Shown here: positions 526 to 56,194 of the stretch, piece by piece | Position numbering within the stretch: position 1 is the stretch's first letter | How the letters are laid out: every line of letters begins with the position of its first letter | Source of the DNA: Azolla caroliniana | Lineage: Eukaryota; Plantae; Polypodiophyta | Direction: 5' to 3' | Length of the DNA: 64,000 nucleotides | Assembly: GCA_043228905.1 (NCBI GenBank) | Contig: JBHGNT010000008.1 | Location: forward strand, 1,488,001-1,552,000 | Notes under the pieces: model-generated | Databases searched by the model: none | What the model saw: the letters and a program-made list of their open reading frames with translations, nothing else | Told to the model about the DNA's origin: nothing | Position numbers and translations under genes: made by a program

Positions 526-579
526 GGACTTGAACCAATAACCCCACCCTATGACTCTCAAATCTTACCATTTACTCTA
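526..579 (-). promoter_or_regulatory. tRNA-like Pol III A/B-box module in LTR U3 (copy a)
   Basis: Minus strand reads TAGAGTAAATGGTAAG ... GGTTCAAGTCC, span 54 nt. Confidence 0.6.
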
Positions 580-690
580 TACTAGTAATATACATAAAAT
601 AAAGCATACTTTATATATACTTTATATTACATAAAGGATTTGCTTCATGATATAAAAATAAAGTTCTATGTTGTATTCAATAGCATTTTG

Positions 691-744
691 AGACTCGAAC
701 CCACAACCTCATACACCAAAGTTGACACACCTACCATTAGGATA
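691..744 (-). promoter_or_regulatory. tRNA-like Pol III A/B-box module in LTR U3 (copy b)
   Basis: Minus strand reads TATCCTAATGGTAGG ... GAGGTTGTGGGTTCGAGTCT, span 54 nt. Confidence 0.6.
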
Positions 745-2543
745 GGCCCTTTCTCTTTAAGATTATGTTTTCATGTTTATTGTTATTGCATATATTGTTT
801 CATACATAAAAGCTCAAATGAGCGAGATGTTTATCATGCATCACATGTAATGCATGAACGCCAAATGGCGATCATGCATCACATGCATTTCATGCACTAC
901 ATGCATGATTTGTACCCTCCAATGCATCATATGCATGGGGGCACCTATTTAAATGGTGAAAGAGAAGATCAAAGGGGGATATGTATGAGATATCAATCAA
1001 ATTATGTATTACATAAGAGATACCATAAAATAGAGAAAGAAAGGAAGAAGTTCAAGAGAAAGGTGGAGCTCTAGCTTGGCGGTCGTGGTGGTCAACTCTC
1101 AACAAGAGGGAGGCGGTTCGAGCCTTATCTTCATCAAAATATTGAAGCGAAGATTGTAGTGGTCTACGATCAAGAAAGAGAAGAGCGATTACCTTGCAAG
1201 ACAAAGTTCGGAGGTTCAATGACGTGAACAACTACTTTTGTAACTCTTTCATCAAATAATTATAAATCTCTTTTATTGCTTCAAATATCATTCTATATCC
1301 TATCTTGTCATATCTTGTTGATCACTATTTATCTATCTCTACTCTTTCCTCTCTTCCGTCCATAATCCCAGTGATTCCTTCCTCACTTTCACGATATCTT
1401 TTGTCTACGCAACGCTACGCTTCTAGGCGAGCCACGCCACGCCCACTTCCCATTGCTCATCCAACAAGGTCTTCCAAGATCTGGTACGCCCCCGGAGGAA
1501 TTGATCATGGATATATGGTTAACGATTATTAGCTGCCTACGAGGGCAATTGGACAAGGTTTGCAGCCACTCTAACGACGTGATCACTGCTCATTTGCGCT
1601 TCTAGCAGAAATGACGAAACATGCCGATAGTGACACAAGGGGGAAACAACCCGAGGTGGAACTACCAGCCCCCACATTGGTTGTTTCCTATTCACCTCCC
1701 ACCCTCCCTTCGTTGTAGGCCACAGGATCCAGCTCATACTAGCCGGTGATGAAGGGCATTAGTTTATAGCTATAGGTACCTACTTACATTAAGTAGTCAG
1801 TTTGAAAGGATATGTACGTAGTCTCATATTCTTGAAATTGATCGAAGGGTAATTCCTCGATTTATGTATAAGACACCTTGTATATAGTCTTTTTGTAATA
1901 ATCTCTCCTCACAAATGGGAAAGTAAATTTTTTTTGAAAAAAAAACTTTCCTTCCTACTTAGTGTTTACGATATTTAAATTTTGCCTAGATTTTCTATAA
2001 TATTTATTTATTTCATTATTATTGTGATTGTTGGATGGAAGGTAATTGAACAATGTGGTTGACCTTACACAAAAATGCACACACAAATTGTATATAGTAA
2101 ACAAAACCTTGAAGCGCCTTTCGTGAGTAAGTACCTCCTCAACTTGGACAAGGTCATGATTCAAATCCTCACTTCCATACATTTTGTATTACACCACAAA
2201 TCATTTCTCCTAAACTACATGCCACATCGGGGAGTATCATCTCACAATCTCGTAATATTTGAGAAAGCAATCTCAATTATGGCATGATTTGTCTCTCTCC
2301 CTCTCTCTCCATCAAAGTCATAAAATTGAGAGAATTGTAGCTCGATCCTTGGCATGGGCTAGGCCCCACCTCATAGATCACAATTGGTTTCCAATGGACA
2401 TTAAAATGATATCTATATCTATCTCTCTATCTCTCCTCCCCCCATAGTGAATAATAAACTTTACATATGGTACACGAAAATGTTTCACTTTCGTACCATA
2501 GACCATATTTGACCTTCGAAGATTATAATAAATAACCTATTCA

Positions 2544-51970: not shown

Positions 51971-54900
51971 AGACATACGTCTTGGCTTATCATGACATTC
52001 ATCTTGGCGAACCAGGAATCGAACCCATAACCTCTTGGTTTACATATTGTACTTTAACCATTGTAATAACATATGTGAGATGTAATCATAATAATTATAT
52101 GTTTAGTTATTACGAGATATTTAGAACATTCTAGATTATTCTAGAATGTTCTTGAATATTTCATGATTATATTTATTATTATTATTATTCATAAATATCT
52201 AAAATATTCTAGAACATTCTAGAATACTCCATAAGGGCCTATAAATAAGAGTCCATACACTCATCACAACTCATTCGGTTCAACACCAGTCTTTAGCCCT
52301 TAGCCTACTCCTTGTAATCTTCTTTCTCATAATATAATCTCATTCTCATTTCTTATCTCTCACTTATACTTTTCTCTCTCTCGCACTCTCTCCCTCTTTC
52401 ACTCTCTTTTGCTATCACTATCGCTATCTCTACCGCTCTCGCCATCTCTATCGTTATCGTTATCTCTATCGCCATCGCTCTCTCTCTGCTTCCTACTCAA
52501 GAGTCACAACATATAACAACTTCAATGAATAAAGCAAAGCTCATGTGCTCTGGGAGAAAATCGACACCATGCTAGAGAGTAAAAACGCCGTAAATCGGGT
52601 TTCGATATTTTGGAAGTTAGTGAGACTCCAATACTAGGACGGATCCAGCATAGTGGAGCACATGAACACATTTCAGGGGCTCATGAACCAAACAACTTCG
52701 CTTGAAGTACCTCTATTCGACGAGGTACTTGCATTGCTCCTACTTTGTTCCCTCCCGGATAGTTGGGAGACGGTAGTTGTCACTTTGGGCAACGTCGGGC
52801 CGAAAGGAAAGTAGTTGTCCCTAGCAAGGGTAAAATCAAGCTTGCTAGATGAAGAAGCTCGCCGAAAGGAGCGGGAGTCCGGAACCGATCCAAATGCCTT
52901 GGTCACAGAAGATGACCATTGCCAGGGAAGAGGCCGGTATCAGAGTCCCCAAAACCGGGACAAATCGGGGACGAGGTCGAAGTCAAGGGGACTTCCATAA
53001 GAACTGTCGGCATTTCCGGAAAGAGAAGGGAACCGACAGTGCCGATTCGAAGAAGGGTTCGGACTGGAAAGGCTCGGATCGGAAGGGAACATTGGTGATT
53101 GCGACAAGTGAAGCAGAACTGATGCTCATTACTGAGGAGAATCAGTTAAACCTTGTCAGCGATGAAACAACGTGGGTTGTCGATTCCGGAGCATCGTTCC
53201 ATTTGACACCGGACCAGAAATGTTTCTCATCCTACATAGCCGGAGATCACGGTTGTGTCTGGAAGGGGAATGAAGGTACATGCCGAATTGTCAGCATAGG
53301 AGATGTGTTGTTGATGACATCAACTGGATGCAAATTGCTGCTAAAAGATGACCGACACGTTTCGAAGGTTCGTTTAAACTTGATATCAGCCGGTCGGCTA
53401 GATGACGAAGGCTACACGGGTTGCATCCGGAACAAAGTCATGAAATTTAGCAAAGGAAGCCTGATTGTGGCTCGAGCCTAGAAGATCAACACGTTATATC
53501 TGATGCATGCCCGGATATGCCAGGAAGAAGTGAACGTAGCATCTGACACTGCTGGTGAGCCATGGCACAAGAGGTTGTGTCACATGAGCCAGAAGGGGAT
53601 GAGAAGACTTGTCGAAGATAACCTCATTCCGGAAGTGAAATGTGTGCATCTTGATAAGTGCACCGATTGCTTGGCTGGCAAGCAAAACCGAACCTCCTTT
53701 TGGTCAAGACCACGGATGAGACAGAATGCACCACTGGAGCTAGTGCATACTGATGTGTGTCAAGTGGATACGAAGTCACATGCTAGATCACAATACTTCG
53801 TGATGTTCATAGACGACCACAACCGGAAGCTGTGGGTCTCACCACTGAAGACAAAGGATTAGGTGTTGTCTGTCTTCAAGGAACTCCACGCGAGAGTGGA
53901 AAGAGAAACCGGCCAGAAGTTGAAAGCGGTTCGAGCAGACAACAGAGGAGAATGCCGGGGGAAGTTCGAGGAGTACTGCCGATCGATGGGAATCCGGCTC
54001 GAATTCACCGTGCCAAAGACGCCAGAATTGAACGGGCTGGCCGAACGGATGAACCAAACCATAATGGAGAGAGTCTGAAGCATGCTAGCACATGCAAAGT
54101 TACCCAAGACGTTTTGGGCTGAGGCGCTGATGACGATGGTGTATGTGATCAATAGATCACCCTCAGCACCCTTGGACGGAGACACTCCACAGAGACTATG
54201 GACCAGGAAAAATGTGACTTACCGGTGTTTGAAGGTGTTCGGATGTCTCGAATATGTGCATGTTGCAAAGGACAAGAGAGGAAAGCTGGATCTGAAGTCC
54301 AGGCCATGCATATTCCTCGGATACGACAACAATGAGTTCGGTTACCAGGTGTGGGATCTGGTTGACAAGAAGGTGGTCCGGAATCGGGACATAGTCTTCA
54401 TGGAAGTCAGGACCATTGTCGACTGGGAGTCGGAGAAGAAGATGATGAACTTCGGATCATCCAATGAAAAACGGCTTGAGGACACAAGGACTTACCCAGT
54501 TGAAAACTGGATGTTAGCCGGGAATCGGATGACACTTGATGAACCGACCGGATACGGACAAGAAACCGAATCGACCGAAGAAGAAGAAGACACCGGAACC
54601 GGACAAGATCCCGAATTGGATTCGGATTCTGAACAAACGGAAGAACTGGTAGTCAGAAACAAAGGACGAAGATACCCTCTCAGAGAGAGAAGAGCTCCCC
54701 AAAGATTTCCGGATGCAAAGCACGTATTGTTGATCGATGAGGAGGAGCTGGAAAGATTCGATGAAGCAAAGAAAGACACGCACAACCGCAAGTGGTTAAG
54801 TGCCATGCAGGACGAGATGGATTCCCTGCATGAGAACCACACATATGAATTGACGGAGCTGCCGAAAAGAAAGAGAGCACTCCGGAATAAGTGGGTGTAC

Positions 54901-56139
54901 AAGCTGAAACCGGGAGATGCCGGAAATCCACCGAGGTACAAGCCCCAGATCATGGTGAAGGGGTTCTAGCAGAAGAAAGGTGTGGATTTCGACGAGATCT
55001 TTGCCCCAGTAGTAAAGATGACATCCATCCGGATGGTATTGGGCCTAGCAGCAAGCATGGAACTCAAGGTAGAGCAACTGGACGTCAAGAAGACATTCCT
55101 ACATGGCAACCTCGAAGAAGAGATCTACATGCATCAACCGGAAGGATTTGAGAGTAAAGGGAAGGAGCACTTGGTGTGCCGGCTAGAGAAGAGTTTTTAC
55201 GGATTGAAGCAAGCCCCCCGACAATGGTACCAGAAGTTCGACTCCTTCATGACGGATCAAGGGTACCACAAGACGCAAGCTAATCAATGCGTGTTTGTGA
55301 AGAAATTTGATGGAGGAGATTTCTTGATATTGCTTCTGTACGTGGATGACATGTTGATCATTGAACGAGAGCAAGTCAAGATACGAATGTTGAAGAAGGC
55401 CCTAAACCTGACTTTCTCAATGAAAGACTTGGGTCCAGCAAGACAGATTTTGGGGATGCACATCATCCGGGACTGGTTGGAGAAATTGTTGGGGTTGTCA
55501 TAGGATGCTTCAGCAGTTCAACATGTCGGATGCAAAATCGGTCAGATCGACACTCCCGACAAACTGCAAGCTATCCGGAAAACAAAGCCCGAAGATGAAG
55601 GCCGAGAAGTCGGATATGACGAAGATACCATAGCCTCTGCCATCGGAAGCCTAATGTATGCAATGGTGTCCACCCAACCGGATATTGCATATGCTATCGG
55701 AGTAGTCAACCGTTTCATGAGCAATCCAGGAAGAGAGCACTGGAACGCGGTTAAGTGGATGCTCCGGTATCTGAAAGGCACCTTGAGTATATGCCTTCGG
55801 TTTGGCTCTGGTAAACCCCAACTTGACGGATTCACAGATTCGGATATGTCGGTTGATGCGGATACTAGCCGGTCTACATCCAGATATGTCATGACTTATG
55901 CAGGGGGAGCTGTATCGTGGCAGTCAAGGCTGCAAAAATCCATGGCACTGTCAACTACGGAAGCGGAGTATATGACAGTTGGAGAGGAAGTAATCTGGAT
56001 GAAGGACTTCATCAGAGAGTTAGGGGTTCGACAAAAGGAATACCAGCTCTATTGTGACAATCGAAGTGCCATCCACTTGTCATGATAACACTCACATCAT
56101 GCATCGAAAGGATCATGACACTCACATTATGCCTCAAAA

Positions 56140-56194
56140 GGATTTGAACCCACGACCTTGTTGTACACATGTCAAATCCTTAGCCATTGTATTA
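56140..56194 (-). promoter_or_regulatory. tRNA-like A/B-box module in U3 of element B
   Basis: Minus strand reads TAATACAATGGCTAAGG ... AAGGTCGTGGGTTCAAATCC, span 55 nt. Confidence 0.65.

What the first reader, a model, noticed from the sequence alone, without database searches (positions are those of the whole stretch)
526..56194. Four unrelated LTR families each carry an antisense tRNA-type Pol III promoter module in U3
Seen: modules at 526-579 and 691-744 (non-chromovirus gypsy LTR), 32737-32790 (solo LTR), 41571-41624 and 52015-52068 (element A), and 56140-56194 (element B). Each has an A-box TAnnnnA(A)TGG(T/C)(T)AAG-like motif and a B-box GGTT(C/T)RANTC(C/T). Each spans 54-55 nt from A-box start to B-box end, lies upstream of the LTR TATA box and points opposite to LTR transcription (the solo LTR orientation is inferred from its TATA). 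The sequence between the boxes differs and does not fold into an anticodon arm. Known: this is the geometry of tRNA positions ~8-62 bound by TFIIIC; tDNA/TFIIIC sites act as heterochromatin barriers in yeasts; Cassandra TRIMs carry a 5S Pol III promoter in their LTRs. Inference: boxes and spacing, not tRNA structure, are being maintained, so these retrotransposons may use TFIIIC/Pol III as a built-in insulator against silencing or to make an antisense RNA. I do not recall this being described across lineages but could not search.
Basis: partly seen in the sequence, partly recalled or inferred. Interest (0 to 1): 0.85.

Follow-up and report, generated by a model that had tools for sequence, protein, structure and literature searches.

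The report
Backwards tRNA promoters in fern retrotransposons
In a probably fern genome, two distant groups of protein-coding jumping genes carry, back to front in their end-repeats, the two promoter boxes of a tRNA gene, kept at tRNA spacing while the sequence between them has drifted; the boxes likely recruit the host's tRNA-gene transcription factor and would help keep the element's own promoter from being silenced.

Summary
The six modules are real: 8 A/B-box pairs against a mean of 0.15 in shuffles. The families are not four unrelated ones. They fall into two gypsy lineages of a fern-like host: self-priming chromoviruses (A, B) and Phygy-like non-chromoviruses.

A profile trained only on window modules found the same antisense module at the 3' LTR start of 5 of 31 related loci picked by position, including all 4 closest relatives, and never in sense. 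Across six chromovirus families, box identity is 0.62-0.88 and spacer identity 0.36, in line with pol synonymous sites (0.26-0.48). The cloverleaf is lost. So the boxes, not a tRNA, are being kept.

A missed 59-nt tRNA-Arg insert in B's gag suggests that reverse-transcriptase capture yields antisense copies by mechanism, so orientation alone proves nothing.

Best reading: a TFIIIC-bound boundary about 160-250 bp upstream of the LTR TATA box; binding and insulation are untested. tRNA-like LTRs are known in TRIMs (Helenus), and this scan noted similar LTR boxes in fungal genomes. Selected antisense boxes in autonomous plant elements were not found in ten literature searches.

The parts
342..1479 (+). 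LTR1 of a non-chromovirus (Phygy-like) gypsy. Follows an integrase end and PPT, and is followed by a tRNA-type PBS at 1482. Probably a fusion of two related LTRs joined near 633/634.
   Evidence: contigs of runs X4 and X5 start their LTR (TGTCGTG) right before position 634
526..579 (-). A/B-box module LTR1a (B box 10/10, weak A box 6/9)
   Evidence: one X4 contig covers it with 1 difference
691..744 (-). A/B-box module LTR1b (A 8/9, B 9/10), 203 bp upstream of the TATA-like box at 947
844..885 (.). Palindromic U3 block (RY-like and E2F-like motifs; labels recalled). 26-27 nt of it match chromovirus LTRs of L003 and L005 at 96%.
   Evidence: high contig depth in X3
32101..33090 (-). Solo LTR, Phygy-like, with 4-bp TSD TCGT (NCGN)
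   Evidence: NCGN preference from PMC6317226 passage
32737..32790 (+). A/B-box module of the solo LTR (A 9/9; B box carries C56T), antisense to the LTR, 221 bp upstream of TATA
41519..42067 (+). 5' LTR of element A, a self-priming chromovirus. LTRs 99.6% identical, TSD TATAA; U3 has heat-shock-element-like repeats (label recalled) between module and TATA.
41571..41624 (-). A/B-box module in the 5' LTR of A (A 8/9, B 10/10), 172 bp upstream of TATA
51963..52511 (+). 3' LTR of element A
52015..52068 (-). Identical module in the 3' LTR of A
48302..51970 (+). Intact pol frame of A (RT, RNase H, integrase, chromodomain)
56078..56595 (+). 5' LTR of element B, a relative of A with a self-priming PBS; this copy is broken
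56140..56194 (-). A/B-box module in the LTR of B (A 8/9, B 10/10), 247 bp upstream of TATA
57617..57675 (-). Precise 59-nt insert in B's gag zinc knuckle: the 3' part of a tRNA with anticodon TCG (Arg). Its CCA end coincides with the TGG at the left junction, there is microhomology at the right junction, and no TSD. Absent from A, L004 and L005.

Best explanation
The modules are tRNA-derived RNA polymerase III promoter boxes, conserved at tRNA spacing in the U3 of two gypsy lineages of a probably fern host, and they likely bind TFIIIC (with TFIIIB) so as to form a boundary that would keep the LTR's own polymerase II enhancer and TATA box open in silenced, repeat-rich chromatin. SHOWN: presence, antisense orientation, position on the outer side of the enhancer-like repeats 158-247 bp from TATA (8 of 9; the extra upstream module LTR1a is at 368), conservation of boxes over spacer, and loss of the cloverleaf. 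INFERRED: origin by capture of a tRNA (or a SINE head) during reverse transcription, which gives antisense copies; spread between lineages by U3 recombination; TFIIIB sitting on the promoter-facing, AT-rich side of the A box; barrier or nucleosome-clearing action by analogy with yeast tDNAs and ETC sites.
For: - Enrichment: 8 hits vs mean 0.15.
- A profile built from 5 window modules scores 27.1, 36.3, 23.7, 36.3 and 19.3 antisense in the 3' LTR starts of L003, L004, L005, L019 and L008 (0 of 60 shuffles each), with sense scores below 0. The other 26 of 31 regions score <=7.5 antisense.
- In 699,663 bases of loci, scores >=19 occur only there and in two tRNA-like genes.
- Among 6 chromovirus families, pairwise identity is A-core 0.88, first 14 nt 0.62, variable loop plus T stem 0.75, B box 0.70, spacer 0.36, flanks 0.33/0.35. 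For the three found by position only (L003, L005, L008): B box 0.82, spacer 0.31. Four-fold degenerate pol sites: 0.26-0.48.
- Invariant in 9 of 9: A14, G19, G45, G46, T47, G53, T54, T55, A58. Core GTTCRANNC is intact in 7 of 9. With span free over 34-99, the best A box is at 54-55 in 7 of 9.
- All 5 families with an LTR in the A clade (SH-aLRT 100, quick tree) carry it.
- One X2 contig differs from A at 3 listed positions inside the module, none in box-consensus positions (tiny sample, table cut).
- TFIIIC sites act as barriers and insulators in yeast (PMC4228148 passages); chromodomains aid insertion into heterochromatin (PMC12477314 passages).
Against: - No binding, chromatin or expression data.
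- Two modules have a broken B core (solo C56T, L003 C61T), and two have weak A boxes whose best span is off (LTR1a 53, L008 64).
- G10 of the A box is kept in only 3 of 9.
- Strict 54-55 spacing is tighter than TFIIIC is generally held to need (recalled).
- Close kin lack it: L007, sister of L008, and L011, and the window's other chromovirus and three copia families. It is not required for LTR function in this genome.
- The Phygy-like lineage has no chromodomain, so the heterochromatin-targeting rationale does not cover it.
- Only 9 distinct modules; 6 of them were first found by a box scan, so part of the conservation figure is circular.
- The tree is the quick one, and the hosts of the related loci are unknown.
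Confidence: 0.5

Rival explanations
1. The boxes are a working Pol III promoter whose product matters: a short antisense RNA from U3 that would regulate the element or act as a silencing decoy.
For: Both boxes and tRNA spacing are kept, which full Pol III transcription needs. The 70 nt upstream are 67-81% AT, and 6 of 9 have a TATA-like hexamer. Cassandra transcribes from an LTR Pol III promoter (PMC10886601).
Against: No conserved terminator: the first T4 lies 0-69 nt after the B box in 7 of 9 and is absent within 120 nt in A (5' copy) and L004. TATA-like positions vary from -13 to -65. No shared fold: z-scores +1.5 to -2.6 in the 8 of 9 modules folded. In chromoviruses the transcript would leave the LTR after 21-62 nt.
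Confidence: 0.17
2. The module acts as RNA: in the genomic RNA, U3 is complementary to the D and T arms of a host tRNA and would anneal to it, like the 3' half of the bipartite primer site of yeast Ty3.
For: It explains the strict antisense orientation, the U3 location and the conservation of the variable-loop GGT outside the classical B box. Ty3 U3 pairs with the T and D arms of tRNAiMet (PMC5371799 passages), and Drosophila Gypsy has a second 3' PBS (PMC1635307 abstract).
Against: A, B, L004 and L005 self-prime (PBS matches the R start at 11 of 13 nt, with a compensatory change in L004), so they need no primer tRNA. Positions 48-52 vary between families. Only 4 of 24 departures from the tRNA consensus are G>A (wobble-tolerated), while 8 are C>T and 6 G>T, which break pairing. 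L004's self-priming sequence changed while its B box did not, so the module is not part of the priming hairpin.
Confidence: 0.1
3. The modules are neutral relics of captured tRNAs or SINE heads; the shared boxes only reflect what all tRNAs share.
For: A tRNA capture in antisense is seen in B's gag, so such pieces arise readily. Different captured tRNAs or SINE heads would share boxes and differ in spacers. Kojima notes that 'not a few' Repbase LTRs resemble part of a tRNA. An earlier scan note (e1-9852194) reports a decaying backwards relic in a fungal LTR.
Against: The young capture keeps anticodon and T stems 5/5, whereas the modules have lost pairing to chance level while boxes still match 6-9 of 9 and 7-10 of 10. 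The module sits at the same U3 position across a clade whose synonymous sites are 0.27-0.48 identical. No SINE body, tail or TSD is evident beside them.
Confidence: 0.1
4. The LTR-borne boxes serve as landing pads that attract other retroelements targeting Pol III start sites, or are kept as sites for an unrelated Pol II factor.
For: Earlier scan notes (e1-10420520, e1-10420559; unchecked) report insertions upstream of LTR-borne tRNA boxes in gut fungi. The LTR1 fusion point (633/634) lies about 55 nt upstream of module LTR1a.
Against: No integrated element lies just upstream of any of the 6 window modules. The nested insertions here fall in gag, pol and RNase H regions. The LTR1 junction lacks the TG end of an integration. 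A single Pol II factor would not explain two boxes at tRNA spacing.
Confidence: 0.08

Closest known systems
Helenus / TRIMp3 (Kojima 2024, PMC10886601; read parts 1-4 of 6 of the text plus searched passages; supplements not seen)
   Same: [quoted passage not shown]
   Different: Helenus are non-autonomous TRIMs of 311-1263 bp, proposed to be transcribed from the Pol III promoter. The paper screened only TRIMs under 1000 bp and argues autonomous partners must use Pol II. Here the carriers are pol-encoding gypsy elements with their own TATA box, and the boxes point away from the element. The passages read do not state Helenus orientation; sense is inferred from its promoter model.
Cassandra TRIM (as described in PMC10886601)
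   Same: Conserved Pol III promoter inside plant LTRs, maintained over long times.
   Different: 5S (type 1) promoter with terminator, makes the element's own RNA, non-autonomous.
Yeast tDNA / ETC TFIIIC boundary elements (PMC4228148, passages)
   Same: A/B boxes or tRNA pseudogenes that recruit TFIIIC (ETC9: TFIIIC and TFIIIB, not Pol III) and shape neighbouring Pol II transcription and heterochromatin spread.
   Different: Host chromosomal sites, experimentally shown; not carried in a retrotransposon promoter. Here binding and barrier action are inferred.
Ty3 bipartite PBS (PMC5371799, passages) and Drosophila Gypsy 3' PBS (PMC1635307, abstract)
   Same: Sequence complementary to tRNA arms at the 3' end of a gypsy RNA (U3 in Ty3).
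   Different: Those match one primer tRNA and serve priming. The chromoviruses here self-prime, and their modules vary at pair-breaking positions.
Tcn1 chromoviruses and Phygy elements (PMC6317226 and PMC2864245, passages)
   Same: Self-priming plus chromodomain (A, B); non-chromovirus with 4-bp NCGN target duplication (solo LTR).
   Different: The passages read place Tcn1 in mosses, club-mosses and fungi, and Phygy in Physcomitrella. They mention no tRNA-like boxes in the LTRs. The host here looks like a fern.
Culex cqgypsy_1 tandem tRNA copies (PMC3286476, two passages)
   Same: tRNA-like copies with terminal CCA inside a gypsy element, comparable to the insert at 57617-57675.
   Different: At the PBS region, a single case, not a conserved U3 feature.

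Membership tests
Helenus/TRIMp3 | tRNA-derived sequence with boxes A and B in the LTR | tested here: met
Helenus/TRIMp3 | non-autonomous TRIM, about 0.3-1.3 kb, no coding | tested here: not met
   A has gag and an intact 1222-aa pol frame; LTR1 follows an integrase end
Helenus/TRIMp3 | Pol III promoter able to transcribe the element (sense orientation inferred from the paper's model) | tested here: not met
   9 of 9 modules are antisense, with a separate TATA-like box downstream
tRNA gene | cloverleaf with acceptor, D, anticodon and T stems | tested here: not met
   ARAGORN 0; acceptor 1-4 of 7, anticodon at chance level; folds
tRNA-derived SINE insertion | head plus body/tail, with TSD, in single host copies | tested here: not met
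   present in both LTRs of A and in other copies and families; no tail or TSD seen by eye
Type 2 Pol III promoter / TFIIIC site | B-box core GTTCRANNC and A box at tRNA spacing | tested here: met
   core intact in 7 of 9; best A box at 54-55 in 7 of 9; consensus motifs recalled
Type 2 Pol III promoter / TFIIIC site | TFIIIC/TFIIIB occupancy or Pol III transcription | not testable with these tools
   needs ChIP, gel shift or in vitro transcription; only contigs, no raw RNA reads, were available
TFIIIC chromatin barrier | blocks spread of silencing in a B-box-dependent way | not testable with these tools
   needs a reporter assay
Ty3-type bipartite PBS | tRNA-primed element whose U3 pairs with the same primer tRNA | tested here: not met
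   A, B, L004 and L005 self-prime; departures are mostly pair-breaking; not testable for the Phygy-like lineage without a host tRNA set
Tcn1 chromovirus (elements A, B) | chromodomain and self-priming PBS | tested here: met
   PF00385 in A; PBS matches R at 11 of 13 nt in A and B
Tcn1 chromovirus (elements A, B) | RT phylogeny with named Tcn1 references | not tested
   no named reference held; named hits are fungal, fish, algal and amoebozoan proteins at about 40-55%; cluster members carry no organism names
Phygy (LTR1, solo, 59125 LTR) | non-chromovirus gypsy with 4-bp NCGN target duplication | tested here: met
   solo TSD TCGT/TCGT; GCGT left of 59125; LTR1's own TSD not visible
Phygy (LTR1, solo, 59125 LTR) | RT phylogeny with named Phygy references | not tested
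   named hits of the related pol at 61.4 kb are Riccia and Adiantum proteins at about 55-61%

The most novel reading that the evidence does not exclude
Autonomous gypsy retrotransposons of ferns have domesticated a host tRNA promoter as a portable, outward-facing TFIIIC boundary placed about one nucleosome upstream of their Pol II promoter. They captured it through primer read-through by reverse transcriptase and passed it between distant lineages by U3 exchange. It would be a built-in anti-silencing device, and would seed fern genomes with thousands of TFIIIC sites.
Probability: 0.3. Interest if true: 0.85.

Novelty: new variant of a known kind. Interest (0 to 1): 0.62.

Why it matters
How LTR elements that land in heterochromatin stay transcribable is an open question. 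A cis-acting TFIIIC boundary inside U3 would be a simple answer, testable with one B-box point mutation. It would extend Pol III boxes in LTRs from non-autonomous TRIMs, where they are thought to drive the element, to autonomous plant elements, where they face outwards and cannot. It would give a handle on TFIIIC boundary function in plants. It also predicts that repeat-rich fern genomes hold many tRNA-like false positives and TFIIIC sites. The 59-nt insert is a clean snapshot of how such pieces likely enter an element.

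Tried and rejected
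- Whole genome: none held, so no genome-wide family scan or host tRNA set.
- RNA evidence: no RNA holder listed. Only contigs could be laid, so no statement on expression; uncovered stretches there were not used.
- More relatives: viral contigs gave 2 and 1 distant loci and none for the non-chromovirus integrase. A PPT + LTR start + B-box pattern gave 3 loci without gypsy pol hits, rejected as chance or tRNA. The metagenome scan covered 5 of 64 parts and kept the best 80 of 586, so only four loci at 69-74% identity were obtained. No related LTR of the Phygy-like lineage could be fetched.
- The 31 regions were chosen from 93 loci held. Several negatives lacked a recognised PPT and may not include the true LTR start; the whole-locus scan covers this in part.
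- Sense pair at 1072-1125 (score 8.1) and a pair at 26221-26274 (13.5, not in a recognised LTR): not counted.
- LTR1a and LTR1b as a simple tandem duplication: alignment score 38 is below the shuffle maximum of 47, rejected; fusion of two families is preferred.
- Module as part of the self-priming hairpin: rejected (L004).
- Initial guess of a moss host: dropped.
- The careful tree did not finish; the quick tree is used, and no one-clade test was run.
- Earlier-finding look-ups by place and by sequence were empty.
- Literature: ten searches found no report of conserved antisense A/B boxes in autonomous plant LTRs. The library lacks most subscription papers and Repbase entries, and the Helenus supplements were not seen.

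Full report
CONTEXT. The window is a nest of LTR retrotransposons around a DEAH1 helicase frame (20973-24302). The best named hits of that helicase are fern proteins (Adiantum 62%, Ceratopteris 58%), ahead of conifer (56%) and bryophytes (52-53%), so the host is probably a fern. No whole genome is held.

OBSERVATION. All six modules are at the given coordinates. A generic scan with recalled A-box and B-box consensus motifs, span 53-56, gives 8 hits against a mean of 0.15 and a maximum of 1 in 40 locally resampled windows. The two extra hits are a weak sense-strand pair at 1072-1125 and a true tRNA fragment at 57628-57682, the only tRNA match in Rfam (30.1 bits). ARAGORN finds nothing.

WHICH ELEMENTS: CHROMOVIRUSES. 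Element A (41519-52511; LTRs 99.6% identical; TSD TATAA) is a young chromovirus with an intact pol frame and a copia nested in its gag. B (LTR 56078-56595) is a broken relative: gag 83%, pol 79%, LTR 68% nt. Both self-prime: the sequence after the LTR matches the start of R at 11 of 13 nt, as in relatives L004 and L005, with a compensatory change in L004. Passages of PMC6317226 give self-priming as the mark of Tcn1 chromoviruses; I had no named reference to test this by tree.

WHICH ELEMENTS: NON-CHROMOVIRUSES. LTR1 (342-1479) follows a non-chromovirus integrase end. The solo LTR (32101-33090, minus strand) has a 4-bp TSD TCGT, and a third LTR at 59125 is preceded by GCGT. Both fit the NCGN preference given for Phygy. 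The solo LTR shares a U5 block with the other two (0 of 300 shuffles each; LTR1 vs 59125, 15 of 300). Contigs of runs X4 and X5 start their LTR directly before position 634, so LTR1 is probably two related LTRs fused, each bringing one module. The finding therefore covers four or five families in two lineages. The chromovirus at 13235-20232, three copia families and the 59125 LTR (possibly truncated) score at most 7.4.

NON-CIRCULAR TEST. I trained a profile on the five distinct window modules (leave-one-out scores 20-38). I scored 300 nt at the pol end or 3' LTR start of 31 related loci, chosen by position out of 93 held. Five score 19-36 antisense with 0 of 60 shuffles reaching them: L003, L004, L005, L019 (same family as L004) and L008. 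None of the five scores above 0 in sense; the highest sense score among the 31 is 10.9 (L012). The other 26 score at most 7.5 antisense. Over 699,663 bases of loci, scores of 19 or more occur only at these five places and in two tRNA-like genes. In a quick RT-RNase H tree of 40 rows, A, B, L003, L004/L019 and L005 form one clade (SH-aLRT 100) in which every family with an LTR has the module. L008 lies in another clade beside L007 and L011, which lack it, so two changes are needed.

WHAT IS CONSERVED. Among six chromovirus families, pairwise identity is 0.88 for the A-box core, 0.62 for its first 14 nt, 0.75 for tRNA positions 44-51, 0.70 for the B box, 0.36 for the spacer and 0.33/0.35 for the flanks. 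The three families found only by position give 0.82 for the B box and 0.31 for the spacer. Four-fold degenerate pol sites between the same families are 0.26-0.48 identical, so the spacer has drifted like synonymous sites and the boxes have not. Nine positions are invariant in 9 of 9 modules, including GGT at 45-47, outside the classical B box. The B core is intact in 7 of 9. With the span free from 34 to 99, the best A box is at 54-55 in 7 of 9, the exceptions being the weak A boxes of LTR1a and L008. The cloverleaf is gone: anticodon pairs average 2.78 against 2.92 in shuffles, acceptor 1-4 of 7, and there is no shared fold. The distance to the LTR edge varies from 21 to 349 nt, but the distance to TATA is 158-247 nt in 8 of 9. 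Between module and TATA lie heat-shock-element-like repeats (A, B, L004, L008) or an RY/E2F-like block (LTR1, L003, L005) (labels recalled).

ORIGIN. B carries a precise 59-nt insert (57617-57675) in the gag zinc knuckle, absent from A, L004 and L005. It is the 3' part of a tRNA with anticodon TCG, with intact anticodon and T stems (5/5 each). Its CCA end coincides with a TGG of the host frame, it ends in a microhomology with the D arm, and it has no TSD. I infer mispriming by a tRNA, plus-strand read-through of the primer and a template switch. This route always leaves the tRNA antisense to the element, so the orientation of the U3 modules is expected from their origin and is not by itself evidence of function. 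A SINE-head origin is not excluded. LTR1 shares a 26-27-nt U3 block at 96% with chromoviruses L003 and L005, and LTR1b shares the non-tRNA state T10 with A, L003 and L004. This suggests, but does not show, that U3 DNA including the module moved between the lineages.

MECHANISM. Shown: a DNA motif pair with type 2 Pol III geometry is maintained on the outer side of the LTR enhancer and promoter. Inferred: TFIIIC binds it and loads TFIIIB on the AT-rich side (67-81% AT) that faces the LTR promoter. It would act as a barrier or nucleosome-clearing site, as tDNAs and ETC sites do in yeast (PMC4228148 passages). Chromodomain elements insert into heterochromatin (PMC12477314 passages), which gives a motive for the chromoviruses but not for the Phygy-like lineage. 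I give this 0.5.

RIVALS. An antisense Pol III RNA (0.17) is weakened by the lack of a conserved terminator, upstream TATA position or fold. Ty3-like pairing of U3 RNA with tRNA arms (0.10; PMC5371799 passages; PMC1635307 abstract) would explain orientation and the variable-loop bases. But these chromoviruses self-prime, and only 4 of 24 departures from the tRNA consensus are wobble-tolerated. A neutral relic (0.10) conflicts with box retention alongside complete loss of pairing. A landing pad (0.08; from earlier scan notes) has no support among the six window modules.

AGAINST MY READING. There are no binding or expression data. The set is nine modules, six of them first found by a box scan. 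Two B cores are broken, G10 is kept in only 3 of 9, and related elements do without the module.

WHAT IS KNOWN. Kojima 2024 (PMC10886601; parts 1-4 of 6 and passages read, supplements not seen) describes Helenus TRIMs with tRNA-derived LTR boxes in fungi, animals and Selaginella. The paper remarks that not a few Repbase LTRs resemble part of a tRNA, but analyses only TRIMs under 1 kb. This finding fails the Helenus tests of non-autonomy and sense-promoter role. Passages of PMC2864245, PMC6317226 and PMC3601003 on these LTR lineages mention no such boxes. PMC3286476 (two passages) has captured tRNA copies at a gypsy PBS. PMC12498455 (listing only) concerns internal type 2 Pol III promoters in a retrovirus miRNA cluster. 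Ten searches found no report of conserved antisense boxes in autonomous plant LTRs. Earlier unchecked notes of this scan describe tRNA boxes in fungal LTRs, one as a landing pad and one as a decaying backwards relic; none matched this DNA.

VERDICT. Real, under apparent purifying selection, lineage-wide, and a new variant of a known kind; the function is inferred. Interest 0.62.

Noticed in passing
window 57617-57675: Precise antisense capture of the 3' 59 nt of a tRNA-Arg(TCG) in the gag zinc knuckle of element B, with CCA/TGG and D-arm microhomology junctions; a likely snapshot of primer read-through and template switching.
   Followed up: yes
window 41829/42068, 56475/56596; L004 4490/4647; L005 4305/4454: Tf1-type self-priming with a compensatory change in L004, in a chromovirus of a probably fern host; the passages read place Tcn1-like elements in mosses, Selaginella and fungi.
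   Followed up: partly
window 844-885; L003 3551-3577; L005 4229-4254: A 26-27-nt U3 block with RY-like and E2F-like motifs (labels recalled) is 96% identical between a non-chromovirus LTR and chromovirus LTRs, and very deep in run X3: U3 exchange between lineages or a shared factor site.
   Followed up: partly
window 41675-41785, 56260-56435; L004, L008: Arrays of heat-shock-element-like repeats (6-9 overlapping units; label recalled) in U3 suggest heat-inducible elements.
   Followed up: no
window 342-1500: LTR1 has a PPT before it and a PBS after it and seems to be a fusion of two related LTRs at 633/634.
   Followed up: partly
window 20973-24302: DEAH1 splicing helicase as one uninterrupted 1109-codon frame; possibly an intronless retrogene.
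   Followed up: no
window 1086-1108 and 13476-13495: A similar R-region motif appears by eye in LTR1 and in the unrelated chromovirus LTR at 13235; not tested.
   Followed up: no
window 59125-64000: A minus-strand Phygy-like LTR interrupts B's pol and is followed by plus-strand Phygy-like coding sequence; the junction was not resolved.
   Followed up: partly
L082-L092: Eukaryote-type gypsy retrotransposon contigs sit inside prokaryote-labelled genome bins, likely contamination.
   Followed up: no
window 9371-11611: hAT transposase remnant (Dimer_Tnp_hAT).
   Followed up: no
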